Assembly (NCBI GenBank): GCA_964434285.1
Contig: CAYSUJ010000001.1
Span: 304,564-368,563, forward strand
Direction of reading: 5' to 3'
Source of the DNA: an uncultured Candidatus Saccharibacteria bacterium
Lineage (GTDB): Bacteria > Patescibacteriota > Minisyncoccia > Phycocordibacterales > UBA2100
Length of the DNA stretch: 64,000 nucleotides
Position numbers and translations under genes: made by a program. Below the pieces are notes generated by a model that saw only the letters and a program-made list of their open reading frames with translations, searched no databases and was not told the origin of the DNA. Every line of letters begins with the position of its first letter. Positions within the stretch are counted from its first letter, which is position 1. Positions 13,186 to 56,998 of this stretch are shown here, piece after piece.

Positions 13186-13860
13186 TCAACTGTCGAGCTG
13201 CTTTTTCTTCCACTCCTCGATCTTCGCATGGTGCCCCGATTTCAAGACCTCCGGCACTGGATATTTCTTCTTTTTCCAGACGAGGACATCAGGGCGTGTA
13301 TAGACGGCAGGAGACGCCGTCCGATTCTCTTCAAGCGAGTCCTTATCACCAAGAACCCCCTTCACATGTCGCGCAACAGCATCCACCACAATTGCCGCAG
13401 GAAGCTCACCACCGGTGAGAACATACGGCCCCACAGACACACGCTTCGCCTTGAGTATCTTCTCCACCCGCGCGTCAACCCCTTCATAGTGCCCCGCGAT
13501 CATGAGAATATGCTTCTTTTTCGCGAGCACTTTTGCCATCTTCGCGTCGAACATTGCTCCTGCGGGAGAGAAAAAGAGTGTCGTGATATCTGTTGTTTTT
13601 AGTTTTTTGTTTTTAGTTTTCTTGAGGGCTGCTTCAGCGGCACTCAAGACGTATTCCGGCGCAAGCACCATGCCGGGCCCTCCGCCATACGGTCTGCGAT
13701 CTATGCGTTCTTTGTAGCTCTTCGCAAAATCCTTCGGATTATACAAATGCACCTTAATTTTCTTATCCTCCTGCGCGCGTTTCAACATCGAGCTCGTGAA
13801 ATAGCCCTCAATCGATTCGGGAAACAGGGTCACGATGTGAAAATGGATCATTATTGACAT
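13186..13860 (-). CDS. trmD: tRNA (guanine37-N1)-methyltransferase TrmD
   Basis: MIHFHIVTLFPE...RRPYGGGPGMVL SPOUT motifs. Confidence 0.9.
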   Translation of the reverse strand: MSIMIHFHIVTLFPESIEGYFTSSMLKRAQEDKKIKVHLYNPKDFAKSYKERIDRRPYGGGPGMVLAPEYVLSAAEAALKKTKNKKLKTTDITTLFFSPAGAMFDAKMAKVLAKKKHILMIAGHYEGVDARVEKILKAKRVSVGPYVLTGGELPAAIVVDAVARHVKGVLGDKDSLEENRTASPAVYTRPDVLVWKKKKYPVPEVLKSGHHAKIEEWKKKQLDS

Positions 13861-14374: not shown

Positions 14375-14701
14375 TTAGTTTCCACTCTTCAAATCCGCAA
14401 TCACGTCGTCAACAGTGCGATCTTTTGCGGCCTCAGCGTCAAAGTGCCGTTCTGAACCCTCGGGTTCCTCGATCTTCAAATTCACGCGCGCATCGTGCTT
14501 CATACCGACGACACGAAGGATGGTACGAATCGCTTTCGCCGTCGCACCCGAGCGACCGATTATCTTGCCCATGTCATCCTTATTGACCGTAAGCGTGAGA
14601 AGCACGCCCATCTCATCAACGACGCGAGTGATTTTCACATCCTGAGGGTTATCAACAAGCGAGGTGACTACGTACTCGAGAAACTTCTGATCGTTTTCCA
14701 T
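14375..14701 (-). CDS. KH-domain RNA-binding protein (YlqC/KhpA-like)
   Basis: VNKDDMGKIIGRSGATAKAIRTIL KH motif; conserved position between rpsP and trmD. Confidence 0.8.
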   Translation of the reverse strand: MENDQKFLEYVVTSLVDNPQDVKITRVVDEMGVLLTLTVNKDDMGKIIGRSGATAKAIRTILRVVGMKHDARVNLKIEEPEGSERHFDAEAAKDRTVDDVIADLKSGN

Positions 14702-14761: not shown

Positions 14762-15145
14762 TTAAGCCTGCACAGGAGCAGCTTCTTCTGCAGGTGCCTC
14801 CGCTGCTGGTTCTGCCGCTGCTGCAGGAGCCTCGGATACTGGAGCCTCTGCAGCCAGTTCCTCCTTTTTCGGTACCGTCTTCTTGGGAAGCACATTTACC
14901 TTCTTGCCTGAAAGAATGCCCGCAGAAACGAGCATATTGTGCATGGTGCTACTTGCCTGTGCCCCATTCTTGAGCCAGTGTTTGATACGCTCTCCGTCGA
15001 GAACGCGCTCCTTGGTCTTTGGATTGTAGGAGCCGAGGATCTCGGTCGCACGGCCTGACTTAGGGCCATTCGTATGCTCGGTGACCACCACGCGATAAGA
15101 CGGGTTATTGGTACGGCCGGTGCGCTGTAATCGAATCTTTAACAT
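14762..15145 (-). CDS. rpsP: 30S ribosomal protein S16 with an Ala/Pro/Glu-rich C-terminal extension
   Basis: MLKIRLQRTGRTNNPSYRVVV...GSYNP signature. Confidence 0.9.
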   Translation of the reverse strand: MLKIRLQRTGRTNNPSYRVVVTEHTNGPKSGRATEILGSYNPKTKERVLDGERIKHWLKNGAQASSTMHNMLVSAGILSGKKVNVLPKKTVPKKEELAAEAPVSEAPAAAAEPAAEAPAEEAAPVQA

Positions 15146-15186: not shown

Positions 15187-17394
15187 CTATTTCGCTACCC
15201 GTTCGGCCTCCTCAAGCTTCACGGAAAGTATCTTCGACACCCCGTCCTGGCTCATGGTGATCCCGTAAAGCTCTCCTGCCGCGCCCATCGTCGCGCGGTT
15301 GTGGGTGATAACGATGAGCTGGCTCTTTTTTCCCAACTCAATAATCATGTCGGCGTAGCGTCGAGAGTTCGCCTCATCAAGCGCTGCGTCCGTCTCGTCA
15401 AGAATAAGAAACGGCGGCGGATTCACCTGTGACATCGAAAAAATGAGTGCGATTGAAGTGAGCGCACGCTCGCCGCCCGAGAGCACCTCCAGCCCGCGGA
15501 TCTTCTTGCGCGGGAGAGCAACATCAATGGAAAGCCCCGAGTATGTCTCCTCTCCATCATCAGTGTTACCCCCATCATTATCTCCATATTCTGAGCCATC
15601 CTGTGGAACAAGGCGACGCCTTGCGTCTTTTTCATCCACAAAAAGCTTCGCGTGTCCCCCGCCAAACAGTTTTACAAAGAATCCCCCAAGGGCTTCATTA
15701 ATGAGTTTGAGGCCGTCTTTAAAACGAGCGTCGATGGTTTCCTCAAGTTCGCCAATCAGATTCTTCAGCGCTGCTGCCGAATGCTCGAGATCCTGCAACT
15801 CCTTAGCGAGAAACGCATCGCGCTCGGTCGTCTGCTGATATTCTTTTTCAATTGCTTCCCCACCACCAACACCAGCTTCTTCAATCTTGATCTTAAAACG
15901 CTCGATCTCACGACGTCGCTTCTCTTGCTCGCGCCGCTCTTCAAGTAGAGCGCCTTCTGGCACCTCGTGCGTATTCCACCCTTCAAACGACGAACCGAGA
16001 AGCGCTATACCCTCGCGCACCTCCTCTTCAAATCGCCGCTTCTGCTCTGCCACATGTTCGTGCTCACTCTTGAGCGCAAACATCTTTGACTGCACTTCAC
16101 GAAGCTGCGCCTCAAACTGCACCTCCTCTCGCTCGGCATGGAATGCGGCCTCGCGCTCCTTCGAAATATGGACACGTACTTCTTCCAAAGCCTTTGCAAT
16201 GCGAGATTCCTCCGCTTCTGCTTTCTCAAGCGCCGCTGTAAGGCGGATCACCTCTTTGCGCGCCTCTTCGTTCGTGATTGGCGCTGCTCCGGAGAGTCCT
16301 TCGATAAATGCACGAATGCGCTCGCGAAGCTGGGATAACAGTGTCTTTACTCTTGCAATATCTGCAATGCCCTCCGCCTCTTCGATCGCCCCGGTAATCT
16401 CACGCACGAAATCACGCACGTGCGGAACCGGCACTACGTGCTCAACGGTTATCGCCGCCGCCTCCACGGCACCTTCCGCTCGCCCGAGATCACGCACTAA
16501 CAGTTCGCGCTTTCTACGCGCCTCGCTGAGTTCTCCCTGCAGCGTTTGTACCTGAGTGAGCAGTGGCGATTCTTTCTGATTCACATGTTTGACCGATCGT
16601 GCCCCCTGTAATTTGCTCTGGAGCTCGCGAATCTCTTTTTCGCGCTCATGCACGTCGTCATTTACACGCGTTGCTTCCGCAGTAAGCCACGCATTCTCAC
16701 GAGCCAGGTAATCAGCGAGCTTATGCGCCAGTTCAGCTTTCATTTCTCGCGCCTTCTCGATTTTTTCGACCTGCGCCTCAAGAAACTTCAGGTGTGGCGC
16801 AAGCTCCCGGCGGAGCGACTTCGTCTTATCAATATTCACCGCCGTTTCCTCAAGTTTGCGCTCGCTTTCGGCTTTTTTGTGCTGGTAGAGCTTCAGCCCA
16901 AGCGCATCTTCCACCATCTCACGCCGCTCACGGGGCGATGCATTCAAAATACGATCAGCCTCACCTTGCGAAATGATTTGATAGCCCGAGCCGCCGATGT
17001 TCGCGCCCGCAAGCAGGCGAATCACGTCTTTCAATCGCACCTGCGAGCCATTTAAAAGATACTCATTTGCTCCATCGCGATGCACGATGCGCTCCACGAC
17101 AACCTCTGAAAAATCGATGTCTAGAAGTCGTTTCGAGTTATCAAAGACGACACGCACCGCCGCACGATTCATGCGTGGAAGCGCGGGTGAACCGCCCCAA
17201 ATCAGGTCCTCGCCGCGCTTGGAACGCATGCTTTTCATCGACTGCTCGCCCAAAACAAACCGGAACCCTTCGGCTACATTCGACTTCCCCGACCCATTCG
17301 GACCCACAATTCCCGCAATACGCGAACCAAAAACAAGCTCGGTCTTCTTCCCGAACGATTTGAACCCCGTGAGCTCGATAGACTTGAGGTACAC
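15187..17394 (-). CDS. smc: SMC-like chromosome-partition ATPase, hinge-less and only about 736 aa. The ORF track extends to 17823; the likely GTG start at 17394 gives (M)YLKSIELTGFKSF
   Basis: N-terminal Walker A FKSF...GPNGSGKSN...LGEQS, long coiled-coil middle, C-terminal LSGGERALTSIALIFS signature, Walker B ILDETDAALD and D-loop. It sits in the conserved rnc...smc...rpsP neighbourhood. No hinge (GxxG/dimerisation) domain was found. Confidence 0.75.
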   Translation of the reverse strand: MYLKSIELTGFKSFGKKTELVFGSRIAGIVGPNGSGKSNVAEGFRFVLGEQSMKSMRSKRGEDLIWGGSPALPRMNRAAVRVVFDNSKRLLDIDFSEVVVERIVHRDGANEYLLNGSQVRLKDVIRLLAGANIGGSGYQIISQGEADRILNASPRERREMVEDALGLKLYQHKKAESERKLEETAVNIDKTKSLRRELAPHLKFLEAQVEKIEKAREMKAELAHKLADYLARENAWLTAEATRVNDDVHEREKEIRELQSKLQGARSVKHVNQKESPLLTQVQTLQGELSEARRKRELLVRDLGRAEGAVEAAAITVEHVVPVPHVRDFVREITGAIEEAEGIADIARVKTLLSQLRERIRAFIEGLSGAAPITNEEARKEVIRLTAALEKAEAEESRIAKALEEVRVHISKEREAAFHAEREEVQFEAQLREVQSKMFALKSEHEHVAEQKRRFEEEVREGIALLGSSFEGWNTHEVPEGALLEERREQEKRRREIERFKIKIEEAGVGGGEAIEKEYQQTTERDAFLAKELQDLEHSAAALKNLIGELEETIDARFKDGLKLINEALGGFFVKLFGGGHAKLFVDEKDARRRLVPQDGSEYGDNDGGNTDDGEETYSGLSIDVALPRKKIRGLEVLSGGERALTSIALIFSMSQVNPPPFLILDETDAALDEANSRRYADMIIELGKKSQLIVITHNRATMGAAGELYGITMSQDGVSKILSVKLEEAERVAK

Positions 17395-17401
17395 GTAGGT
17401 A

Positions 17402-19402
17402 TTGTATCGCACTAATACACACAACGACCCAGCAGCCGCCCGTCCACATTCGACCATCATGTACAATTCCCGCATGTCCATGGAAGGTGGCAAAAACGGG
17501 CCCAAGTCACCGCGCCCTACAATTCTCAAAAGCTTCGGAGAATTACCGACTGCTGAAAGGCCGCATAGAGGTCGCGCACACAAAAAAGAGCGACAGGCTG
17601 TAAGAAACGAAAAAGCATTTTCCCTCAAACGACTGACACAAGAAGCATCTGTGTTTAAGAATGAAATAGACAAGGAACTCAAGTCTATTTTGAGACGAGC
17701 AGGTATCGAGAACGGAGAAGTTGCTATTGAACTCCGTCGAGAAGAGATGCAATTTGAGATAGAAATCGATGTCGCAGATGTTTCTGTACCTGATGCATTC
17801 GACCTCGAGTACGCCGCCGACAAGATAAGGAATCATATTGAAAGCGACCCGCGAAATCCGCATAACATGACTGTCCTAGTGCGTATTTCGCGTGCAAGAG
17901 ACAAGAATCGAGAAGCTCTGGAACGGGGTCGCCCGGCTCCGCACCAGAATGTCGAAGCGCGCCGTGAGATGCTTCGGAAAGAGCTGGAGAGAATGCACGA
18001 TCTACTCGATAAACTCGCTGAACAGCTGGAACGCGACGGGTTTATGCCAAAAAAGGAAAAGCGAGAAATCTATTTCAGGACGTCTCGAACAAAAGAGGGA
18101 CAAGAAATCTACGAGGTCGCAATCGATAATGAGGACGCTCCGCAGTCCATCCAGAACACTGTGCAACGCCTCGCACTGATCGAAACACGTCTCCTCACGA
18201 GTACGCGTGTGCTCGTACAAACTGCCGACGGCAAAGTCGTTATTGAAAGTCGAGAGCTAGGTTCTCGAGTAGAAGGCACACCAGAAAAAGCAGGCGTTGC
18301 GAAAGAAAGTCTCGACAATTTGAAGGCGGAGATGTTCCCTAAGCTCCGATCTCGCTTAAAGGAGTTCGCACTCGCGGTCGGCACTTCCCCACTCAGTACT
18401 GTGGAGGAAAAAATGCTCGCCCGCATCGTATCCGTTCAGGTGATTGAAGCACTCGACGATATTCTTCGTCTCGAGAAAAGCTCTGGAAAAAAGGGAAAGG
18501 AACAGGCGCGCACTAACATGATCGGAGGAACAAACCTCTTCAATCGTCTTCAAAAACTCGCCCTCATCGATGAAACAGGATGCCAGGTCAACCCGGAAAA
18601 TATCGCGAAACATATCGCACACTATTTAGAATCCGGATCTGATGCGAAAGACAATTTCGTCATCGCCCTCCACAACATCTCCGCTCGTTTCCAAAAAGTG
18701 AACCGCGAACGCGCTTTTCCCCGCATCCGAGAGGAATTAGAGAAGAAAATGACTGAGCTCGGTCTCCGATTGGAGAATGCCGATATCCTAGAGGAAGAGC
18801 CGACGCCCGAAACCCCGTGGCGTCTCGCTCTGGGTATTCACCCCGACGCAGACGGCGAGGGTGTACCCACAATTCTCCGCCGACCACTGGGACCAAACCC
18901 CAACCCGGTTGTCACGGCAGAGTTCGCAGCGCTGCTGCGTGATATGGATAGCATAAAACAAATAGAAGCAACTGGTGGCGAAGCACCATCCCCTGCCTCA
19001 GAAACGATTGTTCCCACCCTAGAGGAGTTTGCATCTGATATCGAATCATTAAGTGCATCTGCGGAAACTTCTCGCGCAACAGAGAGTGAAGACGAGCGCA
19101 CCGGGGAATTAGAAAACTTGGTTGCGGCGTTACAAACGCAATTAACAAAGGCGAACGAATCATTCGCTGCGGCGCAAAGTGAGATTGAGACTTTGCGCAC
19201 GTTGTCAGAACAATCAGGCGATGCCCTTATCGATGCTCATGAAAAAATCACGTCGCTAACTGAAGATCTACAGCGCACGGAAGCTCAAAGAGTGCTTCTT
19301 GACGCGTTCGCGAATGAAATAAAAAGAATATCGGAAGACCCAAGGGCAATTCTTGAGATGACAAAAATTGTTGTTGAAGCTTTACGAGAAATTGAAAAAT
19401 GA
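17402..19402 (+). CDS. large hypothetical protein, highly charged and coiled-coil-rich (up to 666 aa; start uncertain)
   Basis: Long ORF in a visibly AT-richer stretch, with no recognisable catalytic motif. Its TGA stop overlaps the ATG of the next gene (ATGA at 19399-19402). Confidence 0.55.
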   Translation: MYRTNTHNDPAAARPHSTIMYNSRMSMEGGKNGPKSPRPTILKSFGELPTAERPHRGRAHKKERQAVRNEKAFSLKRLTQEASVFKNEIDKELKSILRRAGIENGEVAIELRREEMQFEIEIDVADVSVPDAFDLEYAADKIRNHIESDPRNPHNMTVLVRISRARDKNREALERGRPAPHQNVEARREMLRKELERMHDLLDKLAEQLERDGFMPKKEKREIYFRTSRTKEGQEIYEVAIDNEDAPQSIQNTVQRLALIETRLLTSTRVLVQTADGKVVIESRELGSRVEGTPEKAGVAKESLDNLKAEMFPKLRSRLKEFALAVGTSPLSTVEEKMLARIVSVQVIEALDDILRLEKSSGKKGKEQARTNMIGGTNLFNRLQKLALIDETGCQVNPENIAKHIAHYLESGSDAKDNFVIALHNISARFQKVNRERAFPRIREELEKKMTELGLRLENADILEEEPTPETPWRLALGIHPDADGEGVPTILRRPLGPNPNPVVTAEFAALLRDMDSIKQIEATGGEAPSPASETIVPTLEEFASDIESLSASAETSRATESEDERTGELENLVAALQTQLTKANESFAAAQSEIETLRTLSEQSGDALIDAHEKITSLTEDLQRTEAQRVLLDAFANEIKRISEDPRAILEMTKIVVEALREIEK

Positions 19403-22400
19403 CCATGGAAAATCCATTCCTAAAGCGCATCGAAGACCATTTGGATAGAATGCGCCAAGTCACCGCAAAAAACATGCTATCACAGGCACCAGCTGCAGAA
19501 GTGAAGCCTGTACGGCCCACGAACCCTCTTTTTGCAAATGCTCGCCCGCGCTCAATACACGAACCAACTCCTATAGAAGCGGCTGGGTTAGCTCATGCAC
19601 GAGAACAAGTCCAAAGCGCTCTCGAGAGCATTGCTCAAGATCCTCATTTTGTCGCTGAAGCTCTTGATCGTGCCCGCGCGACAATCGGTGTTCTTCCGAA
19701 GGATGATACTTTCAACGCAACCCAATTTGAGCAATATGGTAAACAACTCTCAGAGTTCCTCGCGACAAGCGATACCTCAAGTGAGGAAAAGAAAGTAATG
19801 GTTGAAGAGTGCGTTGCAGCAATCGCGACCGGGCAAGGCCTCGATTCTTTGCCCGATAACCTTGCAGCTCGATTCTTAAGCTCGCAAGGCGCGCTCACGA
19901 AGGAGGTGCTCCGGGCAGAAATGACACTTGAGGCACAGGATGAGATAACGAAACCTAATCCGCACGCGTACGCGGCGCGAGCTGCGCTAGTGTTTGGTGC
20001 CGCAGCGGGGAGTCTTCTTCTTGAGGTGGGCACGACGAAAACTGCGCTCATTCAGCTTATTGATATCTACGATCCGCCTGGAATAAAACAACTCGCATCT
20101 TTAATCGCGTCTCAGCTTGAATCATTCGGCTACGACAAACTTTCATCCGTATCCGCAGCTCGTCTCGGAGTTGCTTCGACCATCGCAGGAGGTATCGGAG
20201 GAACTCTCCTCGCAACAAAAGGTCTTAAAAAGTTAGGTCCGAAGGGGAAGGCGGCGATGTACACATCTCTTGGCGCTTCTCTCGGTCTAGGCTATCTCGC
20301 TCTTCAAAATTTCGTCGCCGATAACGCCGCTGTCGCTGAAATGGGGAAAGTGATATCAAGTGAATACAAGCCCATTGCTGAACAAGGACTCTCGGCGAAA
20401 GAAAAGCGACTTGCTGCTATCGAGAAAGCAAAACAGGCAGTGCTCGCTACCCTCGAGCAAGAGAGGAACCGCCCGGGCGCCACGGGATACGGGCACTTTG
20501 CAGCGTTTCTTGATCAGGGCCTCTCAGGAAAATACGATGCAGGCTCGTTTAAATCAGGCGCACCCCAAAAACACGCCGCACTCCAGGAATCGCTTAAGAA
20601 CTTGCGAGTAAAATATTTCCGCTCCGATGCCTTGGGCAACGGTTTGTTATCACTCCTAACTGGTGTGGATAATATTGATCTCACTACTGCCCCAGAAAGC
20701 GCCAAAGCTTTGGTAGCTATTGGTGAGGCCGCGGGGCAAACTAATTTATGGAGTGGGCTTGGGAAAGTTTTAAATCCCGTTGGAGGTGTCACGACACCAA
20801 CTGCCATGTACCAACAAGCCTCGTCTGTAACAGAAGCTTTTCGCGTAATGTTGAAGGCAGATCAAGAAAAAATGAATCGTGTTGCTAGTGGTGCCTCGGA
20901 TTGGCTTGATACCATGATTAAGGCTGCGGGAACTCAAGGAGCGGATGCAAAGCTAATTGCCTCGTTGCGCGATCTCAAGGCAACACTGGGTGCAAACCTC
21001 CGACCACTCGACGCGAGCGAAGGGACGATTACGGCGGCACTCGGAAAGTTGCCCAAACCGACGGGCAAATGGGTCGTCAGAGTTGGAGACACGGAGTTCG
21101 CGCAAATGCAAAAGACACTTGAAGGTACATTCTTCCAAACCGTTTTTGGGTTTGACCTTGTTAAGGACGATTCGTATAGAGCCTTTTACCGCGGCGGAAT
21201 CATCGGACTCCTGTTACTCTTCTTCCTGACTATTAACTACGGCTCCAAGCTCGGGACGAATGCACTATATAAACGTCGTGAGAATGAATTTGAAGGATCC
21301 TTGCAAGATGGAAGTAACGAGCTGAATGAAAAAGAAAGCACGCTTGCCTCAGGAATCGCGCGCTTTCTATTCGAAGCAAACAAGGAATTCGTTACTGCAT
21401 CACGATCACCTGAGTTGGCCGCGGTATTACCCGAGTCCGTTCTAACCATGTACGTACGTAGACGGTTGCGCGAGATGTTTTTAGAGGAACAACAAGCTGA
21501 ATCGCCTGACGACCTTGTGAGCAAGAATGATTCGTGGTCATGGCTTGTTCACGGGATCGTCTTCACTCGGACCCCTGACGATGTGCGCACATTTCTAGCA
21601 TACGCTAATTGGCTTGAAAAATTGACGAAAGACCTCGATACATCAAAAGGTGGTGAAAAACTTCAAGCGGTTGTCGGCGCCATATTCCCATCCTTTGATG
21701 CAGTCGTAAAAGCACGGCACGAATCCCAAAAACCGGGCGTAGATAAACCCGAAAAAATACGAGCGTTTAAGAACGAGCTACGAAAGTTACGCAAACAACA
21801 ACTTGAGAGCCTATATATTGCGCTCTCGGATCGCATCAAGGTGATTGAAAGCACTGAAAGCGCAACAGCTGAGAAACCACTGCGAGGAACCCCTCGACTG
21901 CGGCTCGATATCGACAACACCCGAACGATCGTGGAACCAGAACTCGTAATGCGAGCACTTTCTCACAGCCAGCACTCAAGTGAGTTAGAAGAAATTAGCG
22001 AAACATTACGCTATATCGAAAGCTTGGGCATTAAGCCTGACGCGAGCACTCGAGATGATCTCCGCATTGGACGATTCGATCTCGGACCTGTATTTGCCAT
22101 CCGCAATGAACTCCAGAGAATACGAGTGGCGAGTGCACTGGGAATTCCGGACGCAACTGGACAAAAGGAGGATTTTGAGCGATTTGATGCATATATGGCA
22201 GAAATCGCTGTATCTCTCAGAGAAGCGCGCGATGCGTCGCTTAAACAAGAAGCACTCCTCAGCCCGTATACGCCTGTTTTTGATTGGGAAGAGGGCGCAA
22301 AAGGCAAATTTACCGTACGAATCAGTCTGCACCCCGATACTGAGAGAATTGAAGATCCCGTGGCATCAATCACCTTCCCGGGCACAATACCCGATTTCGC

Positions 22401-22989
22401 AAAACCCGACCCTGCAGTTGCATCAGAGACATTAAGGGAGTGGCTCAAGCCGGGTAGCGATGCGGTACGCGGGCTGGTAGCACAAGAACGAAATACCCAT
22501 ATTAAAAAAGAAATTTCGTCACGACTCGCGACGTTGCGAAAGAAGAATAATGGCTCTCCTTCCATGCGAATCGTCGAATCATCAAGACCCATAGTTCTCG
22601 AAGCCGAAGCTATCTCAATTCAACAAGAGCTCGTTGTACTTCAAGAAATCGCCCGCGAACAGGAGTCTTCGATTCCTCTGGCAAAGCGAGGACTCCCCAT
22701 CCCAGAAGATAAGTATCGCGCGTTTATCGATCCAAACGAGTACACCAGCAACGCTCGAACGCTGGCACAGCTACCGGAACGATTCGGGGATCTACAGTCG
22801 CGTGAATGGCCTGATCGCACGTCCATCACATATAACCCAAATCTACGATCATTTGAAGTGCATATTCAAAAACAAAGGCAATTTACACCAGCAACTTCGG
22901 ACGGCATGAAAAGTACATTACCCCTTACATACACCACAAGAGATGTTGAAGACCTTCTCGGTAAGTATGGTTCACTACAGGAGAAATAG
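19399..22989 (+). CDS. giant hypothetical protein (1196 aa) with about four hydrophobic segments
   Basis: Translationally coupled to the upstream ORF. Hydrophobic stretches include AALVFGAAAGSLLL, GVASTIAGGIGGTLLA, LGASLGLGYLALQNFVA and GGIIGLLLLFFLTINYG. No known domain recognised. Confidence 0.6.
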   Translation: MTMENPFLKRIEDHLDRMRQVTAKNMLSQAPAAEVKPVRPTNPLFANARPRSIHEPTPIEAAGLAHAREQVQSALESIAQDPHFVAEALDRARATIGVLPKDDTFNATQFEQYGKQLSEFLATSDTSSEEKKVMVEECVAAIATGQGLDSLPDNLAARFLSSQGALTKEVLRAEMTLEAQDEITKPNPHAYAARAALVFGAAAGSLLLEVGTTKTALIQLIDIYDPPGIKQLASLIASQLESFGYDKLSSVSAARLGVASTIAGGIGGTLLATKGLKKLGPKGKAAMYTSLGASLGLGYLALQNFVADNAAVAEMGKVISSEYKPIAEQGLSAKEKRLAAIEKAKQAVLATLEQERNRPGATGYGHFAAFLDQGLSGKYDAGSFKSGAPQKHAALQESLKNLRVKYFRSDALGNGLLSLLTGVDNIDLTTAPESAKALVAIGEAAGQTNLWSGLGKVLNPVGGVTTPTAMYQQASSVTEAFRVMLKADQEKMNRVASGASDWLDTMIKAAGTQGADAKLIASLRDLKATLGANLRPLDASEGTITAALGKLPKPTGKWVVRVGDTEFAQMQKTLEGTFFQTVFGFDLVKDDSYRAFYRGGIIGLLLLFFLTINYGSKLGTNALYKRRENEFEGSLQDGSNELNEKESTLASGIARFLFEANKEFVTASRSPELAAVLPESVLTMYVRRRLREMFLEEQQAESPDDLVSKNDSWSWLVHGIVFTRTPDDVRTFLAYANWLEKLTKDLDTSKGGEKLQAVVGAIFPSFDAVVKARHESQKPGVDKPEKIRAFKNELRKLRKQQLESLYIALSDRIKVIESTESATAEKPLRGTPRLRLDIDNTRTIVEPELVMRALSHSQHSSELEEISETLRYIESLGIKPDASTRDDLRIGRFDLGPVFAIRNELQRIRVASALGIPDATGQKEDFERFDAYMAEIAVSLREARDASLKQEALLSPYTPVFDWEEGAKGKFTVRISLHPDTERIEDPVASITFPGTIPDFAKPDPAVASETLREWLKPGSDAVRGLVAQERNTHIKKEISSRLATLRKKNNGSPSMRIVESSRPIVLEAEAISIQQELVVLQEIAREQESSIPLAKRGLPIPEDKYRAFIDPNEYTSNARTLAQLPERFGDLQSREWPDRTSITYNPNLRSFEVHIQKQRQFTPATSDGMKSTLPLTYTTRDVEDLLGKYGSLQEK

Positions 22990-23033: not shown

Positions 23034-23234
23034 CTACCCGCTCCCAAAGAGTGCAAACAAAATAACACCGAAGACTACGGCAATCCAAGCAAAAGTGATG
23101 ACCCTACCTATGACACCTACTAAGTGCCGTGCTTTTTGCACGTCGCGCTGCTGTACCATTTGATGACTCCGTTTCTCCGGGGCGGGAACTTCTTTGTACA
23201 TCCTAGTTGCTACAACCCCACTGTCAACTACCAT
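23034..23234 (-). CDS. possible small membrane protein (66 aa)
   Basis: C-terminal hydrophobic helix IAVVFGVILFALF; overlaps the rnc stop by 7 nt; weak support. Confidence 0.2.
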   Translation of the reverse strand: MVVDSGVVATRMYKEVPAPEKRSHQMVQQRDVQKARHLVGVIGRVITFAWIAVVFGVILFALFGSG

Positions 23235-23914
23235 CCCCGTGTCGCAAGTGCCTTACCCGCCGCATCCTGTTCTGCCTCTTGTTTGGACTTTCCTTCGCCT
23301 AATGCTTGCTTCTCTTTGCCGAGAAAGACTGCAACCACAAATCGCTTGTCGTGATCGGGACCGCTTTGGTCACTCAACTCGTACGTAGGAGTGACTCCGA
23401 TTTTGTCTTGCGCCACTTCCTGCAACCGACTCTTCGCATCTTGCCAGAGACGCTTCTCGACAACCTCATCGGTTTTATGGAAGAGCTGAGCCTCAATAAA
23501 TGCGTATGATGCCTCATAGCCCTGATCGAGATAGATGGCACCAATCACCGCCTCAAAAGCGTTTGCAAGAATAATCTGGCGGGCGCGCCCAGTATCTTTT
23601 GCCTCACCACGCGAGAGAAGGAGAAAATCGTTCATGCCGAGCTTTGTCGCAGCATCAGAAATTGATTGCGTATTCACAAGAGCGGCGCGAAGTGAGGTGA
23701 GCTCACCCTCTGGTTTCTGCGGATATTTCTTATACAGAAACTCCGTCACAACGAGCTCCAACACCGCATCGCCCAAAAATTCCAAGCGCTCATTATGCTC
23801 GCGCCCCGGGGCACGATTTTCATTGAGGTAGGATCTATGGGTAAACGCTGTCTCTAACAATCGCTTATCCTTAAATCCAACACTGATTTTTTGTTCAAAT
23901 GGACCAAAGTCCAT
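23228..23914 (-). CDS. rnc: ribonuclease III
   Basis: ERLEFLGDAVLELVVTEFLY catalytic signature plus a C-terminal dsRBD. Confidence 0.9.
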   Translation of the reverse strand: MDFGPFEQKISVGFKDKRLLETAFTHRSYLNENRAPGREHNERLEFLGDAVLELVVTEFLYKKYPQKPEGELTSLRAALVNTQSISDAATKLGMNDFLLLSRGEAKDTGRARQIILANAFEAVIGAIYLDQGYEASYAFIEAQLFHKTDEVVEKRLWQDAKSRLQEVAQDKIGVTPTYELSDQSGPDHDKRFVVAVFLGKEKQALGEGKSKQEAEQDAAGKALATRGW

Positions 23915-23929
23915 GGCGGTACCTTACTA

Positions 23930-24847
23930 TTATTTTGCTTTCTGCGCCAGCACATTAATGGCAGGAATAATGATTTTCAGCGTATCGTCGTAAAAATTTA
24001 AAGAACCCACCTGCGAGAGCGGGAACCATTGCGCGTCGTCGAGACCACCAGATGAGCCGAGTGTGATATCTGCAAAGGGAGACTCTGCAAGGAAGTAGGT
24101 GACGCGTTTGCGCTTTTTCCCCCCTTTGATTTCCGAGTCATTCGCCGTGTATTCATTCACACCAAGTTGTTGCTTGATTTCGATATCAAGTCCAAGCTCT
24201 TCTTTAATTGCGCGTCTCGTTCCCTCTTCAAGCGATTCGCCTTCTCGAATCTTTCCCTTCGATATCGTCCAGTGACCAAAAATGTCGTGCACAAACGCAA
24301 GGTACGTCTCCCCTTCATGCTTCGCGAAGACAACCGCACCCGCGAGATGCTCGACTGGCATCTTGCCAATGCCCTGCCCGCCAGGGCCGGACTTACGCGC
24401 ACTTCCCTCATTTTTTCCCGGTTCCCCGAGCTCAATATAAACGGCGCCGAGGACGCCGTTTATAAAGCGCCCCGAAGAGTTTGATCCGAAATTTTTTGCG
24501 AGCTCAATGGCCTCATTGATGGCGACCTTGGCCGGCACCTGCGTTCTGTCAGCAAAAAGAAGTTCGCAGAGTCCGAGGCGGAGAATGTTGCGGTCTATCG
24601 CAGCTATTTTTTCGAGCGGCCATTCGGGTGCCGCTTTTTCTATCACAGTATCGATCTCTTTCTGTTTCGCAATGACGGTCTTCAGTAATTCCGTCATGAA
24701 GGGCATGTCGTTGTCTCGAGCACCAAATTCTTTTGAGTACTCGGCGAGCCGCTGCGAACCCTCTTCGAGATTCATTGCATTTTGAGCGGAGTCTCTTTCA
24801 AAGAGAACCTGAAGAACAACCGAGCGTGCGAGGTGGCGATTGGCCAT
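23930..24847 (-). CDS. nusB: NusB antitermination factor fused to a C-terminal Nudix hydrolase domain
   Basis: N-terminal 145 aa NusB (RHLARSVVLQVLFE...VAINEAIELAKNFG...FINGVLG). A Gly-rich linker leads to a Nudix box GKIREGESLEEGTRRAIKEELGL. Confidence 0.75.
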   Translation of the reverse strand: MANRHLARSVVLQVLFERDSAQNAMNLEEGSQRLAEYSKEFGARDNDMPFMTELLKTVIAKQKEIDTVIEKAAPEWPLEKIAAIDRNILRLGLCELLFADRTQVPAKVAINEAIELAKNFGSNSSGRFINGVLGAVYIELGEPGKNEGSARKSGPGGQGIGKMPVEHLAGAVVFAKHEGETYLAFVHDIFGHWTISKGKIREGESLEEGTRRAIKEELGLDIEIKQQLGVNEYTANDSEIKGGKKRKRVTYFLAESPFADITLGSSGGLDDAQWFPLSQVGSLNFYDDTLKIIIPAINVLAQKAK

Positions 24848-26205: not shown

Positions 26206-26921
26206 ACCATGTAGGACACGCCGTGTCCTACATTTCGATCCTTATACTCTCCTCTGTAAGTGAAGGCGTATTGATCAGGGCTGCAATTTCGATGCGTTGG
26301 TTTTTTGCGCTCCCTAGGAGCGCTTTTAGAACACGATTATCGATGACTGAAGGGAAATTTCTCTCACCCATATAATCAAGATAACTACTCCATCGATACT
26401 CATGGAGGTACGCAAGAGCATCCGACACCTTTTTTACATTTCCCTGTCTCCATTCGGGCATCGAAAAATCCAGTGGGTTAAGGTGTATGTAGTATGGTAT
26501 GTAGTTGAAATGCGCATCGCGCTGAAGGTGTATTTTTTTAAAGACACCCTGCCAAAGCACGCCACTACGCGAATACTTTTCGTTGAAATATTTTGCATAT
26601 CCCATGCCTAACTTTTGAGCAAAACGAGAAACATACACCGCATCGTCATCGACCGGAGAAAGAAGGAGGTGGTAATGATTGTCCATCAGACACCATGCAT
26701 GAATGTGCACGAGGCGTTTATGATTTCTATCTCTACGCTCTCGCACATGTCTATGGGCCACTATTTTCTGATTATTAAGTTCATACAAGTCGCTTACGAA
26801 TCGAGCCCGATCCCCATCGTCGAGCACAATTTTTCTTTTTTCTACGCCCCTGTTGAGAATGTGATAAAAATCCATGATTCACTTAACTGTACCATGTAGG
26901 ACACGCCGTGTCCTACATGGT
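26206..26921. mobile_element. IS200/IS605-like (RAYT-like) unit: a Y1 HUH transposase gene bounded by identical perfect palindromes
   Basis: accatgtaggacacgccgtgtcctacat at 26206-26233 and the same sequence extended to a 31-bp palindrome at 26891-26921. The tnp stop codon lies inside the left palindrome. Confidence 0.7.
26228..26875 (-). CDS. Y1 (HUH) tyrosine transposase, IS200/RAYT family
   Basis: FYHILNRG N-terminus, HUH motif HAWCLMDNHYHLLL, and a downstream Tyr-containing YRWSSY region; 215 aa. Confidence 0.75.
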   Translation of the reverse strand: MDFYHILNRGVEKRKIVLDDGDRARFVSDLYELNNQKIVAHRHVRERRDRNHKRLVHIHAWCLMDNHYHLLLSPVDDDAVYVSRFAQKLGMGYAKYFNEKYSRSGVLWQGVFKKIHLQRDAHFNYIPYYIHLNPLDFSMPEWRQGNVKKVSDALAYLHEYRWSSYLDYMGERNFPSVIDNRVLKALLGSAKNQRIEIAALINTPSLTEESIRIEM

Positions 26922-38236: not shown

Positions 38237-38902
38237 CTAGAGCTCGTACGAGCCGATGAGTTCGGCGTTTACAACAAAGCGTGACGATTTTGATGTGAGC
38301 GTGTCACAGGTGACGATCGTGAGGCGGTTGCCTTCGCGCGAGAGATCGATAATGCCTTCTTCGGCGTTCACTGTCTTTACTGAGAGTACGCGATACGTAA
38401 AAGTCTTCCCGCCTCCATCCACCTCAATCACATCTCCGGCTTCGAGTTCGGGAATGCGGTTGAACGCTTTGTACATTTGGTTGTGCACGACCGGCAGATG
38501 CGAGGAGTGACCGAAGAGGAGCACGTTCCCTTTTTCACCGAGGAGTGCGGAATCGACGTAGCGGGCCGGGCCGTCTTTTAGATACTCATCAAGCTTCGCA
38601 ATGTCGCGCGTATCGGGATTCGAGAGTGGAAGATTGAGATCAATGGCGGAAATACGCACGCGCGTCGGTAAAACGCCTTGCACGTCCTCCTCCACCGGTT
38701 CTGGCGCAGCTGCTTCCTGCGCGGCAATTTCTTCTCCAAGCTCAGGAAGTTCTGCGATGGAAACGACGCGACGCGGCTCAGTTCCATCAATGTAATACGG
38801 AACAAAACCAACGGAACTCGCGGCGGAGAGCGCCAAAAAGAAAACGACCACACTCGTAGCGAGGAAGACCGAGAATGGCGGCTTGGTAGGAGTGTTTTTC
38901 AT
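38237..38902 (-). CDS. sortase-family transpeptidase. The likely start is the ATG at 38902; the ORF track extends to 39007
   Basis: N-terminal TM, LLFGHS His, LTIVTCDT Cys motif and downstream SRFVV Arg. Confidence 0.75.
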   Translation of the reverse strand: MKNTPTKPPFSVFLATSVVVFFLALSAASSVGFVPYYIDGTEPRRVVSIAELPELGEEIAAQEAAAPEPVEEDVQGVLPTRVRISAIDLNLPLSNPDTRDIAKLDEYLKDGPARYVDSALLGEKGNVLLFGHSSHLPVVHNQMYKAFNRIPELEAGDVIEVDGGGKTFTYRVLSVKTVNAEEGIIDLSREGNRLTIVTCDTLTSKSSRFVVNAELIGSYEL

Positions 38903-39183
38903 CTCGTTAGAGATAGGAAGCGCTTCAATCGGTTCTTTATATAACGCTTTCCCATACCAGATTTTAAGTATATTTCTCTCGACCTTGCATCGGACTCGTT
39001 CCGACACATTTCATAATAAATTATCTCGAACGGACCACGATGCTTTGTCGAAACGTTCGTGCCTCGACTATGTTCCAAGAAGCGCTTCCGCAAATCGTTC
39101 GTTGATCCCGTGTACATCTTCCCATCTTTCAAGCTACGAAGCACATACACATACCAGCTCGCATAATCTCTAACGGGATTCAC
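38899..39183 (-). CDS. GIY-YIG nuclease-superfamily small protein (start uncertain; GTG candidates at 39183 and 39258)
   Basis: WYVYVLRSLKDGKMYTGSTNDLRKRFLEH GIY-YIG motif; the stop overlaps the sortase start. Confidence 0.6.
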   Translation of the reverse strand: MNPVRDYASWYVYVLRSLKDGKMYTGSTNDLRKRFLEHSRGTNVSTKHRGPFEIIYYEMCRNESDARSREIYLKSGMGKRYIKNRLKRFLSLTR

Positions 39184-39211
39184 GTCTATATTGTGCCGTA
39201 ACTCTGTACTC

Positions 39212-39239
39212 TTGTCAATCCCGCAGAGTGTGGTATAAA
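39212..39239 (+). promoter_or_regulatory. sigma70-like promoter for the CARDB gene
   Basis: TTGTCA-N16-(tgg)TATAAA, 7 nt upstream of an aaagg RBS and ATG. Confidence 0.4.
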
Positions 39240-39245
39240 GGCGGC

Positions 39246-40205
39246 ATGAGCGACTCACACGAGAGCCAGAGCCCCGGCCTTCTGGCGAATATTCTAGCGG
39301 TTGCCGGCTTTATTATCCTTATCGTCATAATCGTTTGGGGTGCGTATCATCTTCTCCGACTTACAGGAGCAGGGATCTCTTCCCTCTTCTCGAGCGCGGG
39401 AACGGAAATTAAAATCACGACACCGACGACACCGGTTGAATCAGGCAAGGCATTCCCTCTCGCATGGGATTACACGCCGAGCGAAGCCGGAAGCTTCGCG
39501 GTTTTGTATCAGTGCAAAACAGGATTCCGATTTGAGACCAACGCTCCAGCGCGTGCTGCGCTTCCTTGCGGAAACGCGATCACCGTGGGTGCAGATAAAA
39601 CCATCAACCTCGTCCCTGTGCTCTCGGGCACGACGACCATGGACATACCTGTCTCAGTCGTCTTCGTCCCAGCGGCCACGAGTTCGACGGAACGCCCCCA
39701 GGGTGCAACAACCGTAAAGGTGAATGCAGTCTCTGGCACAGCGGCAACTACGACGACAAAGCCAACCACAAACGCTAAGCCAGCGGCCGCAGCTCCTCGC
39801 CCTGCTGGAAAGCCCGATCTCTCAGTTCGCATCCTTTCGGTGGGCACGGTGAACGCTGTTTCCGGCATGATAGAAAATCGCTATCCTGGTCCTGAAGAAA
39901 TTGCTGCCGTACAATTTGACGTCGCAAACAATGGCACGGGCTCGACCGGAAGCTACTCGTTCACAGTGAATCTCCCTGTGCAGGGCGGGTACGTCTACAC
40001 CTCGCCCACACAAAGCTCTCTCACGCCAGGGTCGCACATCGTGAACACACTTCGCTTCAAGCCGGTCCAGAGCGGCGGCGGTACGGTCACAATCTCTGTT
40101 GACCCGTACGGCACAGTATCTGAATCAAACGAAAGTAACAATACGGGCGCCATCTTCATCGGCGCACCTGTGTGGAGCGGTTTGTACGCACCGTACGTGT
40201 ACTAG
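39246..40205 (+). CDS. N-terminally anchored surface protein with a C-terminal CARDB-like domain
   Basis: TM LLANILAVAGFIILIVIIVWGAY; Thr/Ala-rich linker; C-terminal ...FDVANNGTGSTGSYSF...DPYGTVSESNESNNTGAIF resembling CARDB. Confidence 0.55.
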   Translation: MSDSHESQSPGLLANILAVAGFIILIVIIVWGAYHLLRLTGAGISSLFSSAGTEIKITTPTTPVESGKAFPLAWDYTPSEAGSFAVLYQCKTGFRFETNAPARAALPCGNAITVGADKTINLVPVLSGTTTMDIPVSVVFVPAATSSTERPQGATTVKVNAVSGTAATTTTKPTTNAKPAAAAPRPAGKPDLSVRILSVGTVNAVSGMIENRYPGPEEIAAVQFDVANNGTGSTGSYSFTVNLPVQGGYVYTSPTQSSLTPGSHIVNTLRFKPVQSGGGTVTISVDPYGTVSESNESNNTGAIFIGAPVWSGLYAPYVY

Positions 40206-56074: not shown

Positions 56075-56077
56075 AAA

Positions 56078-56422
56078 TTAGTTTTGGTCTACCGAGGATG
56101 TCGTGGTAGCCGCCTGCCGAGGTGTCGTTGTTCCCGTTCGCGCAATCGGTAAGAATGGATTCGGACGCCCCACCGGTTCGGGAGTGATCTGCGTACCAGT
56201 GTCGACAAGTTGTAGAAAGGCTGGGTCAGTCAGTATGGTACCCGCAAGTGAGATAGTTCTGAGTTGCAGAAGTGTCTCAATAACCTCCTTATCCTCTGTC
56301 CCTTGAATAGTCAGATCTTCCGTCGTTAAGAGCGGCACCGAAGCAGTGTCACGCAAAAATACGTACCAACCAAGGAAGGCGGCAACAACACTTCCGAGCA
56401 CAATGATGATTTTGGATGGCAT
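56078..56422 (-). CDS. membrane-anchored hypothetical protein (PilP-position)
   Basis: N-terminal TM then a soluble region; sits between the PilO-like gene and pilB. Confidence 0.35.
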   Translation of the reverse strand: MPSKIIIVLGSVVAAFLGWYVFLRDTASVPLLTTEDLTIQGTEDKEVIETLLQLRTISLAGTILTDPAFLQLVDTGTQITPEPVGRPNPFLPIARTGTTTPRQAATTTSSVDQN

Positions 56423-56431
56423 AGGTGCGAA

Positions 56432-56998
56432 TTATTTGAGCCAGTAGGTGCGGAGCGTCACATCGAATCGATATACGGGTTCGTTACTCTGTGCAGAAGT
56501 GTCAGGATCCATAGAGAGCTCTACTAAGTCGACGACACGCAAGCTATCTTCGAGCGCTTGCATAAACTCAACGAATTGAGGATACGACCCTCCGGTTGCG
56601 AACTTTAGTGTGAGTGACCCTGTTGGACTCTCATCAGCTCCAATAACGGCCACATCGGTTGCAATGGGAACCAGTCCCTGCGCATCGATGACGACGTTTT
56701 GCAGCGCAAAACCATACTTCGAGGCAAGGGTATCGAGGTCAAGAACCAGTCGTACGTTATCGACATGATCCGGCAACAGCTTTCGCAAGCGCTCAATATC
56801 AGCGGGATTAAACGCATTGTAGCGAGAAAGTAGTTGCTGCTTCAGGCGCTGAAGTTCATCGGCTTTTGAAAGTGCTGCATCGTACTGCGCGATATCCTCT
56901 TGCGTCGACCGCATGCTGTCATACGCAGGTTTTGTGTAGTAGAGAAACAAAGCAATGGAGCCTATGAACAGCAGGAGTGTAAAGAGTATGCGTGTCAT
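56432..56998 (-). CDS. PilO-like type IV pilus assembly protein
   Basis: N-terminal TM, coiled coil and a C-terminal alpha/beta region; right size and gene order. Confidence 0.45.
   Translation of the reverse strand: MTRILFTLLLFIGSIALFLYYTKPAYDSMRSTQEDIAQYDAALSKADELQRLKQQLLSRYNAFNPADIERLRKLLPDHVDNVRLVLDLDTLASKYGFALQNVVIDAQGLVPIATDVAVIGADESPTGSLTLKFATGGSYPQFVEFMQALEDSLRVVDLVELSMDPDTSAQSNEPVYRFDVTLRTYWLK

What the first reader, a model, noticed from the sequence alone, without database searches (positions are those of the whole stretch)
15187..17394. Housekeeping-position SMC that is only about 736 aa and has no hinge domain
The gene sits in the canonical rnc...smc...rpsP context and has textbook SMC head motifs (FKSF, GPNGSGKSN, LGEQS; LSGGE, ILDETDAALD). 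The coiled coil between the head halves is about 450 aa, and I find no hinge/dimerisation domain signature, only a short non-helical turn (ITVEHVVPVPHVRDFV...). Canonical SMC is about 1150-1200 aa with a hinge. A hinge-less, RecN-sized SMC at the housekeeping locus is unusual and raises the question of how it dimerises or loads DNA. The ScpA/ScpB partners are not in this window.
Basis: partly seen in the sequence, partly recalled or inferred. Interest (0 to 1): 0.55.

Follow-up and report, generated by a model that had tools for sequence, protein, structure and literature searches.

The report
Hinge-less half-length housekeeping SMC
This gene is the normal chromosome-organising SMC ATPase of an ultrasmall (CPR/Patescibacteria) bacterium, but it has lost the hinge domain and the outer half of its arm, and some close relatives carry a Rad50-like zinc-hook motif at the same tip.

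Summary
Window 15187-17394 (- strand, GTG start) encodes a 735-aa protein with complete SMC ATPase heads. It scores 540.9 bits against TIGR02168, and its best solved relative is the B. subtilis Smc head (E 3e-86). It lies in the conserved nusB-rnc-smc-rpsP-KH-trmD locus.

No hinge is detectable by Pfam or by profile-profile alignment, and the structure model shows none. Positive controls of 982-1191 aa all score for the hinge. Canonical positions ~313-874 (distal arm plus hinge) are replaced by ~100 residues. These form a conserved double loop and a 20+20-residue helical hairpin.

This is the norm for the lineage. More than 150 clusters at 50% identity from Kaiser-, Nomura-, Azam-, Vogel- and Uhrbacteria are 600-810 aa and hinge-less.

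In 45 relatives the hairpin tip is replaced by an invariant CxxC-[GA]-Q motif, such as CPVCGQ. At least one of these sits in the same locus.

My reading is an orthologous "mini-SMC" that dimerises through its tip. Tip dimerisation and ScpAB partnership are inferred, not shown.

A hinge-less SMC clade was reported in marine Actinobacteria in 2025. I found no description for Patescibacteria and none of a natural SMC with a hook-like tip.

The parts
15187..17394 (-). smc gene: 735 codons plus stop, GTG start
   Evidence: Translation. N-terminus aligns with MYLK/MxLK of 138 homologues. SMC_N 6e-64. TIGR02168 540.9 bits.
16894..17394 (-). N-terminal head half (residues 1-167). Includes Walker A GPNGSGKS (17281-17304), Q-loop ISQGE (16960-16974), and head DNA-binding residues R57/K59/R60 (17215-17226) and R120/K122 (17029-17037)
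   Evidence: Aligns residue for residue with the B. subtilis Smc head 5xg3. Invariant columns. K60/R120/K122 are the B. subtilis head DNA-binding residues (bioRxiv 10.1101/495820). Coordinates.
16459..16893 (-). N-terminal arm helix (residues 168-312), homologous to canonical arm positions ~168-312. Ends in the family-wide motif R-x-L-G-R-[LIV]-E-G (LGRAEG, 16471-16488)
   Evidence: AF2 helices 168-273 and 277-312, pLDDT >85. hhalign 1-316 = canonical 1-312. G304, E307 and G308 are present in 121-124 of 139 sequences.
16270..16458 (-). Tip module replacing distal arm and hinge (residues 313-375): loop 313-322 with V321-P322, helix 323-341 (16372-16428), turn 342-345, helix 346-365 (16300-16359), loop 366-375
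   Evidence: AF2 full length and fragment model with pLDDT 95 on the two helices. More conserved than the flanking arm. Heptad hydrophobics plus extra semi-conserved hydrophobic positions 330, 336, 352 and 364. No homology to the hinge.
15664..16269 (-). C-terminal arm helices (residues 376-577) with the joint-like break at 471-486 (15937-15984). Residues ~421-577 are homologous to canonical ~875-1030
   Evidence: AF2 helices 376-470, 487-507 and 512-577. hhalign. Best Foldseek match is 5xei, Smc head+coiled coil+joint, 1.6e-27.
15190..15663 (-). C-terminal head half (residues 578-735). Includes signature LSGGE (15469-15483), Walker B/D-loop FLILDETDAALD (15376-15411), H-loop ITHNR (15295-15309), and a variable acidic insert at residues ~588-618
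   Evidence: Insert: low pLDDT, gap against canonical SMC, 34% gaps among close homologues.
14762..15145 (-). rpsP directly downstream, followed by KH (14375-14701) and trmD (13186-13860): the conserved housekeeping context
   Evidence: Translations. Same order in related loci, with Pfam labels there.
23228..24847 (-). rnc (23228-23914) and nusB-NUDIX (23930-24847), the conserved upstream neighbours. Here they are displaced from smc by two inserted ORFs
   Evidence: Pfam. rnc is adjacent to smc in 15 related loci.

Best explanation
This is the orthologous, probably sole, housekeeping SMC of a Candidatus Kaiserbacteria-like (Paceibacteria, CPR) bacterium. An ancestral internal deletion removed the distal ~55% of the arm and the whole hinge. 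What remains is two intact ATPase head halves, the neck, the joint, about 145 residues of arm (~21 nm, against ~47-50 nm in B. subtilis), and a new closed tip. The tip is a conserved pair of loops followed by a short helical hairpin.

Shown here: SMC identity of the heads, retention of all ATPase motifs and of the head DNA-binding residues, absence of the hinge, conserved synteny, and wide conservation of this architecture.

Inferred: two protomers join through their tips. In this protein that would be hairpin to hairpin, probably as a four-helix bundle. In relatives whose tip is a single CxxC motif it would be through a shared zinc ion. The arms would align into a short rod. The heads would engage with ATP and clamp DNA. 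The complex would act as a small Smc-ScpAB-type DNA translocase or loop extruder on a genome of roughly a megabase or less.
For: Heads:
- TIGR02168 540.9 bits, against 43 bits for Rad50 and 33 bits for RecN.
- phmmer to the B. subtilis Smc head gives 3e-86. The best Foldseek match is Smc head+joint, 1.6e-27.
- Walker A/B, Q-loop, signature, D-loop and H-loop are invariant across 139 relatives.
- R60, R120 and K122 match the B. subtilis DNA-binding triple K60/R120/K122.

Hinge loss:
-, the last with positive controls.

Orthology:
- The order dnaE/rnhB/nusB/rnc/smc/rpsP/KH/trmD is conserved in up to 16 loci.

Conservation:
- The 150 best 50%-identity cluster representatives are all 604-782 aa and mostly align end to end.
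- A second, Uhrbacteria subfamily (32% identity) is also hinge-less.

Tip as a functional and dimerising element:
- The tip is better conserved than the flanking arm.
- It has extra semi-conserved hydrophobic positions beyond a/d.
- The tip model rises from pLDDT 62-78 in the full-length model to ~95 in the fragment model.
- 45 relatives replace the hairpin by an invariant C-x-x-C-[GA]-Q motif. They keep SMC-type heads scoring 540-562 bits on TIGR02168. One of them, P0223, was confirmed in the same locus.
- One CxxC supplies only two zinc ligands, so a complete site needs two protomers. No second conserved Cys or His pair was seen near the tip.

Precedent:
- In B. subtilis the hinge can be swapped for the Rad50 zinc hook, and arms can be shortened in steps of about 91 aa (PMC5344682).
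Against: - No dimer model or experiment exists. The structure tool predicts monomers only.
- The fragment model looks like a plain extended helical hairpin. Its best structural matches are generic (TM ~0.6, E>0.08).
- ScpA and ScpB were not found in the window, nor in about 330 kb of flanks from 23 related genomes. The query sequences were validated. The rest of these genomes could not be searched.
- The Rad50_zn_hook Pfam model matches only weakly (E 0.034 in one member, fewer than 3 of 45).
- The mean arm length (about 173-205 aa, depending on where the tip is counted) only roughly matches the 163-aa minor mode or the value 344-2x91.
- The protein falls just below the curated TIGR02168 cut-off.
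Confidence: 0.6

Rival explanations
1. The tip does not dimerise. The protein is a single-armed SMC whose only protomer contacts are ATP-dependent head engagement, possibly with a kleisin bridge. The tip would be merely a stable cap, or a binding site for DNA or a partner.
For: The AF2 monomer and fragment models give a self-contained helical hairpin. No hinge-like basic channel is present; net charge of the tip helices is -3 and +3.
Against: The tip is conserved above the flanking arm and has a widened hydrophobic stripe. Relatives substitute a single invariant CxxC, which cannot complete a zinc site within one chain. Every characterised SMC/Rad50/RecN-type protein has a constitutive dimer contact distal to the heads (established knowledge of these families).
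Confidence: 0.2
2. The short protein has changed role. It would act as a Rad50/RecN-like DNA repair or tethering ATPase rather than a chromosome-folding motor. These genomes may lack ScpAB.
For: The architecture (heads, short arm, closed or hook-like tip) resembles Rad50, SbcC and RecN. No ScpA or ScpB was seen in any sequence I could read. Authors of the marine hinge-less clade also raised a change of function (PMC12153180).
Against: Heads, neck and joint are SMC-type and strongly conserved. Rad50 and RecN models score 10-fold lower. The gene keeps the ancestral smc position. No Mre11/SbcD-like nuclease gene lies beside it. The head DNA-clamp residues used by Smc-ScpAB are retained.
Confidence: 0.12
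3. It is a paralogue, and a canonical full-length SMC is encoded elsewhere in the genome.
For: Only 64 kb of a contig of at least 405 kb could be read.
Against: It occupies the orthologous rnc-smc-rpsP slot in every related genome examined. None of 360 listed homologues from three searches carries PF06470. SMC duplication in prokaryotes is said to be undescribed (PMC12153180).
Confidence: 0.05
4. It is an assembly or annotation artefact: an internally deleted or chimeric gene.
For: None beyond the metagenomic origin of the sequence.
Against: The same architecture appears in hundreds of independent assemblies from NCBI, JGI, ENA and Logan, down to 29-40% identity, with an intact frame and a conserved tip.
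Confidence: 0.01

Closest known systems
Canonical bacterial Smc of Smc-ScpAB (B. subtilis type, TIGR02168)
   Same: Head sequence and fold, all ATPase motifs, head DNA-binding residues, neck and joint, the proximal ~145 residues of arm, and the genomic position next to rnc.
   Different: No hinge domain. The arm is about half as long. The tip is a loop-hairpin module with no detectable homology to any part of canonical SMC. The protein scores just under the curated family cut-off. Partners were not identified.
Hinge-less SMC clade of marine Actinobacteria (Sussfeld et al. 2025, PMC12153180)
   Same: SMC-type heads with a coiled coil closed at the far end, no hinge, no CxxC, apparently not accompanied by a regular SMC, known from metagenomes only.
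   Different: A different phylum, so probably an independent loss. I could not obtain those sequences, so relatedness is untested. The family described here is far larger and includes CxxC-tipped members.
Engineered Mini-Smc and Smc(Zh) of B. subtilis (Burmann et al. 2017, PMC5344682; Tatebe et al. 2020, PMC6969161)
   Same: Shortened arms, and replacement of the hinge by an unrelated dimerisation module (the Rad50 zinc hook), both compatible with function.
   Different: Those are laboratory constructs and still have arms of at least ~250 aa. Here the change is natural, fixed in a whole lineage, and the arms are shorter.
Rad50/SbcC
   Same: Heads joined by an antiparallel coiled coil that ends in a small tip. 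Relatives of this protein carry a CPxCG-type motif like the zinc hook.
   Different: The window protein has no cysteine at all. Its heads are SMC-type, not Rad50-type. There is no Mre11/SbcD neighbour.
RecN
   Same: A short-armed SMC-like ATPase without a hinge that dimerises through the far end of its coiled coil.
   Different: RecN models score 33 bits against a cut-off of 408. RecN is about 550 aa with a different head subtype and a different genomic context.

Membership tests
Bacterial SMC (Smc-ScpAB; TIGR02168 SMC_prok_B) | Bipartite ABC-type head with Walker A, Q-loop, signature motif, Walker B, D-loop and H-loop | tested here: met
   All motifs are present and invariant in 139 relatives. 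The head aligns with B. subtilis Smc at 3e-86.
Bacterial SMC (Smc-ScpAB; TIGR02168 SMC_prok_B) | Whole-protein score at or above the curated equivalog cut-off | tested here: not met
   540.9 bits against a cut-off of 567.35. The matched stretch shown covers model positions 1-306.
Bacterial SMC (Smc-ScpAB; TIGR02168 SMC_prok_B) | Central hinge (dimerisation) domain, PF06470 | tested here: not met
   No hit at E<=1. Not among the families hit by 2 or more of 67 relatives at E<=0.1. Absent in 7 distant short relatives, while canonical controls of 1191, 1035 and 982 aa score 8e-35 to 1e-24. hhalign confidence is 0 over the middle region.
Bacterial SMC (Smc-ScpAB; TIGR02168 SMC_prok_B) | Long intramolecular antiparallel coiled coil with a head-proximal joint | tested here: met
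   AF2 pLDDT 87.5 with paired helices and a break at 471-486. Best Foldseek hit is 5xei, head+coiled coil+joint. The length is about half the canonical value.
Bacterial SMC (Smc-ScpAB; TIGR02168 SMC_prok_B) | Conserved chromosomal position downstream of rnc | tested here: met
   rnc-smc adjacency in 15 related loci, and rpsP-KH-trmD downstream. In the window rnc is displaced by two inserted ORFs.
Bacterial SMC (Smc-ScpAB; TIGR02168 SMC_prok_B) | Kleisin ScpA and ScpB encoded in the genome | not testable with these tools
   Not found in the window or in flanks of 23 related loci (queries validated). The rest of the genomes could not be fetched.
Rad50/SbcC | CxxC zinc hook at the coiled-coil apex | tested here: not met
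   The window protein has no cysteine. By contrast, 45 relatives have an invariant CxxC-[GA]-Q at the tip.
Rad50/SbcC | Rad50-type head (NCBIfam Rad50 equivalogs) and an adjacent Mre11/SbcD nuclease gene | tested here: not met
   Rad50 models score 41-43 bits against cut-offs of 700-1087. No nuclease neighbour in the window or related loci.
RecN | TIGR00634 score at or above the cut-off | tested here: not met
   33.5 bits against 407.85.
MukB / MksB / JetC / Lamassu LmuB | Family-specific head and hinge profiles, with an operon encoding MukEF/MksEF/JetAB or LmuA | tested here: inconclusive
   No MukB chain among the PDB hits. Only a weak MukB N-terminal Pfam match, in 9 of 67 relatives (E>=0.005). 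No such partner genes are adjacent. PADLOC models were not run.
Hinge-less SMC clade of marine Actinobacteria (PMC12153180) | SMC-type head, no hinge, no CxxC, not accompanied by a regular SMC; monophyletic near Actinobacteria | tested here: inconclusive
   The first three features match. The taxon names here are Patescibacteria, not Actinobacteria.

The most novel reading that the evidence does not exclude
Paceibacteria and related CPR lineages may run chromosome organisation with a natural 'mini-SMC' that has no hinge. Its dimerising tip would be evolutionarily interchangeable: a helical hairpin in this genome and a Rad50-like zinc hook in Vogelbacteria-type relatives. That would make the family a natural bridge between SMC and Rad50 architectures. 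It would also be proof in nature that neither the hinge fold nor a ~50-nm arm is needed for the housekeeping SMC function.
Probability: 0.45. Interest if true: 0.8.

Novelty: new variant of a known kind. Interest (0 to 1): 0.68.

Why it matters
The hinge is treated as a defining and essential part of SMC proteins, serving as dimerisation site, DNA-binding site and proposed gate. Arm length is thought to be tightly tuned.

Here a large bacterial radiation appears to have dispensed with the hinge and half the arm in its housekeeping SMC. Relatives show two different tip solutions, one of them like a zinc hook. This is the natural counterpart of engineered B. subtilis constructs.

It offers small, simple proteins for structural and single-molecule work on what the hinge and arm length actually contribute. 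It also bears on genome annotation: NCBI labels most of these proteins only "AAA family ATPase". And it bears on how ultrasmall cells with genomes of roughly a megabase or less organise their DNA.

Tried and rejected
1. Direct-coupling analysis on 384 family members, to read tip contacts. The top pairs were all gap-rich loop columns, so it was uninformative.
2. Search for ScpA and ScpB:
   - Pfam on about 51 window ORFs.
   - Visual inspection of the translated neighbour ORFs of related loci.
The one weak hit was EF-Ts.
   - A motif regex.
   - Nothing was found. The recalled queries were later validated against PDB ScpA and ScpB (1.7e-63 and 2.8e-61).
3. Extending the window's own contig. The NCBI gene call is not indexed, and only a 3-kb Logan contig was returned.
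4. Foldseek of the tip fragment against PDB. There were no significant matches, only generic long helical hairpins.
5. Pfam Rad50_zn_hook on the CxxC relatives. The match is sub-threshold.
6. The idea that the tip is a hinge remnant. Rejected, because hhalign confidence is 0.
7. His-based metal binding at VEHVVPVPHV. Rejected, because the His residues are not conserved outside the Kaiserbacteria-like close relatives.
8. Literature searches for hinge-less or short SMC in CPR found nothing.
Full report
**The gene**

The minus-strand ORF ending at 15187 is listed from an upstream TTG. Homologues all begin MxLK. The GTG at 17394 gives (M)YLKSIELTGFKSF and a 735-aa product.

- Pfam places SMC_N across residues 2-721 (6e-64). 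It gives no SMC_hinge even at E<=1.
- NCBIfam gives 540.9 bits for TIGR02168, bacterial SMC. This is just under the 567.35 cut-off. The matched stretch shown covers model positions 1-306.
- Rad50 models reach 43 bits and RecN reaches 33 bits.
- The best solved relative is the B. subtilis Smc head (5xg3, 3e-86). The alignment runs residue for residue over 1-210 and 611-732.

**Context**

rpsP, a KH protein and trmD follow directly downstream. rnc (23228-23914) and a nusB-NUDIX fusion lie upstream. They are separated from smc by two + strand ORFs (17402-19402 and 19399-22989) with no Pfam match.

Twenty-three related loci were fetched from GTDB species genomes. Their recurrent order is dnaE / rnhB / nusB / rnc / smc / (RNase R-like gene on the opposite strand) / rpsP / KH / trmD. 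rnc abuts smc in 15 of them. A relative at 87% identity has three different unknown ORFs between rnc and smc. That gap is therefore a variable insertion spot.

The gene is the positional orthologue of smc.

**No hinge, and what replaced it**

AlphaFold2 with a 139-sequence alignment gives pLDDT 87.5. The predicted elements are:

| Residues | Element | pLDDT |
|---|---|---|
| 168-273, 277-312 | N-arm helices | high |
| 313-322 | loop | 41 |
| 323-341, 346-365 | tip helices | 62-78 |
| 366-375 | loop | about 56 |
| 376-470, 487-507, 512-577 | C-arm helices, with a break at 471-486 | high |

The whole model matches Smc head+coiled coil+joint best (5xei, 1.6e-27).

I ran a profile-profile alignment of the family against 36 canonical SMCs taken from the fetched loci. 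Residues 1-316 align confidently with canonical 1-312. Residues ~421-735 align with canonical ~875-1188. In between, confidence is zero. Canonical positions ~313-874, the distal arm and the hinge, are thus replaced by about 100 residues.

The break point carries a near-invariant family motif, R-x-L-G-R-[LIV]-E-G (G304, E307, G308). Its last Gly aligns with a semi-conserved Gly of the canonical arm, present in 21 of 36 sequences.

Hinge controls:
- SMC_hinge scores 8e-35, 1e-24 and 6e-30 in canonical proteins of 1191, 1035 and 982 aa.
- It is absent from seven distant short relatives.
- It is not among the families hit by two or more of 67 diverse relatives at E<=0.1.

A second model of residues 270-420 alone gives pLDDT 89.3, with about 95 on the two tip helices. 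Its only structural neighbours are generic long helical hairpins and Smc arm segments (TM ~0.6, E>0.08). The tip is therefore an extended closed hairpin, not a globular domain.

**Breadth**

- The 120 closest clusters (67-90% identity) are 678-756 aa. Three intein-bearing ones of about 1070 aa are the exception. Names given by sources are Candidatus Kaiserbacteria, Paceibacterota and Minisyncoccia.
- An exhaustive search of 1.84 billion cluster representatives returned, as its best 150, only proteins of 604-782 aa. Most align end to end at 40-68% identity.
- Further names are Nomurabacteria, Pacebacteria, Azambacteria, Parcubacteria and Patescibacteria group.
- An Uhrbacteria protein at 32% identity seeds another 120 clusters of 620-812 aa without a hinge.
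- These distant members keep a hydrophobic-Pro-hydrophobic-Pro motif at the entry to the tip: VVPVP here, WAPLPL in Uhrbacteria.

The short form is the rule in this radiation. I could not retrieve SMCs from other Patescibacteria classes, so the age of the hinge loss is open.

**The tip**

- Among close relatives the tip is better conserved (0.80-0.86) than the arm around it (0.4-0.65).
- Both tip helices have a regular a/d heptad.
- They also have semi-conserved hydrophobic residues next to the core (positions 330, 336, 352, 364). Such positions are rare in the main arm. This fits an extra packing surface.

The strongest comparative clue came from a cysteine check. The window protein has none. 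But 45 of 507 fetched family members replace the hairpin by a single motif with invariant C, C and Q. Six of these are among the 150 unbiased representatives. Their median length is 709 aa, against 743 aa for the rest. The motif takes the forms CPYCGQII, CPVCGQLV, CGACGQVI and CIYCAQVV. It lies 14-27 residues after the LGRLEG motif.

- These proteins score 540-562 bits on TIGR02168 and at most 71 bits on Rad50 models.
- The Vogelbacteria example sits in the same nusB-rnc-smc-RNase R-rpsP-KH-trmD locus. A second hook-type locus that was read (P0398) keeps only the RNase R-like neighbour.
- The motif resembles the Rad50/SbcC zinc hook (CPxCG). Pfam support is sub-threshold: E 0.034 in one member, and fewer than 3 of 45 members.
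- One CxxC provides two zinc ligands, so a full site needs two chains. This is an inference.
- In a neighbour-joining tree of heads, the CxxC forms fall into four groups interleaved with hairpin forms. That means either several switches or poor resolution.

**Mechanism**

Shown:
- The ATPase is intact.
- The arginine at position 57 is invariant.
- R60, R120 and K122 correspond to B. subtilis K60, R120 and K122. Those are the residues whose triple mutation cripples head DNA binding and growth.
- Neck and joint are retained and are the best conserved arm segments.

Inferred:
- Tip-to-tip dimers form a short rod. The arm would be about 21 nm, plus a 3-nm hairpin, assuming 0.148 nm per residue.
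- ATP-driven head engagement clamps DNA.
- A kleisin bridges the heads.

Burmann et al. showed three relevant things in B. subtilis (PMC5344682):
- The hinge fold is irrelevant, because Smc with a Rad50 zinc hook supports growth.
- Functional arm lengths recur with a period of about 91 aa.
- Natural arms cluster at 238, 341 and 515 aa, with a possible minor mode at 163 aa.

Their survey located arms between head and hinge, so hinge-less proteins would have been missed. The mean arm here, about 173-205 aa depending on how the tip is counted, is only roughly at 344-2x91. I do not lean on that.

**What is not settled**

- ScpA and ScpB were not found in the window or in about 330 kb of related flanks. 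The searches used validated queries. Whole genomes were out of reach.
- A second full-length SMC elsewhere cannot be formally excluded. Synteny argues against it. So does the absence of any hinge-bearing protein among 360 listed homologues.
- Dimerisation could not be modelled.

**Prior knowledge**

One paper reports a monophyletic "hinge-less" SMC clade in marine metagenomes, assigned to Actinomycetes. It has no CxxC, and the authors call it a new kind of biology (PMC12153180).

I found nothing on hinge-less SMC in CPR/Patescibacteria, and nothing on natural SMCs with a hook-like tip. The library does not cover most subscription journals.

**Verdict**

The feature is a natural hinge-less, half-armed SMC. 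It is standard for its lineage, so the novelty lies at the level of the family, not of this genome.

It is a new variant of a known kind. Its interest is raised by the CxxC-tipped relatives.

Noticed in passing
Related proteins P0223, P0144, P0163, P0196, P0224, P0234, P0395-P0429 and others; loci L084 987-3095, L085 6001-8109, L082 6001-8142: 45 members of the same short-SMC family carry an invariant C-x-x-C-[GA]-Q motif (for example CPVCGQ, CPYCGQ) at the arm tip in place of the helical hairpin. It looks like a Rad50/SbcC zinc hook on SMC-type heads. The Vogelbacteria example is in the same housekeeping locus.
   Followed up: partly
Related proteins P0056, P0072, P0092 (~1070 aa): An intein of about 340 aa is inserted inside the Walker A loop (GPNGSGK | C...HN | S). 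It carries a NYN-type domain where a homing endonuclease would be expected.
   Followed up: partly
window 17402-22989 (+): Two large ORFs (666 and 1196 aa) with no Pfam match sit between rnc and smc on the opposite strand. They overlap by 4 bases. In 15 related loci rnc abuts smc. A relative at 87% identity has three different unknown ORFs there (L086 3777-6482). The gap is therefore a variable insertion spot.
   Followed up: partly
window 15541-15633 (-), residues ~588-618 of the SMC: A variable Asp/Gly/Glu-rich insert lies in the C-terminal head half. It is absent from canonical SMC, has low model confidence, and shows 34% gaps even among close relatives.
   Followed up: no
loci L001, L003, L004, L006, L007, L009, L084, L082 (between smc and rpsP): An RNase R/RNase II-like gene of about 640 aa lies on the opposite strand between smc and rpsP in many relatives. 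It is missing at that position in the window.
   Followed up: partly
window 23930-24847 (-): NusB is fused to a NUDIX hydrolase domain (305 aa). The same fusion is seen in relatives (L085, L086).
   Followed up: no
window 26228-26875 (-); L084 3167-3835: An IS200-like Y1 transposase ORF is present in the window. A similar gene lies directly downstream of the hook-type smc in a Vogelbacteria contig.
   Followed up: no
window 14762-15145 (-): Ribosomal protein S16 carries a C-terminal tail of about 40 aa rich in Ala, Glu and Pro. Relatives have S16 proteins of 113-188 aa.
   Followed up: no
window 54314-58854 (-), 38237-40205: A type IV pilus-like cluster is present (T2SSE ATPase, response regulator, PilO-like, PilM), together with a sortase and a CARDB-domain protein. 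This is typical CPR surface machinery.
   Followed up: no
loci L001, L002, L007, L010, L011, L014, L016: MAG record titles such as 'uncultured Candidatus Saccharibacteria', 'Bdellovibrionales' or 'Gammaproteobacteria' label contigs whose smc gene (and, in L001, L002 and L007, whose synteny) is of the Paceibacteria short type. These are probably mislabelled bins.
   Followed up: no
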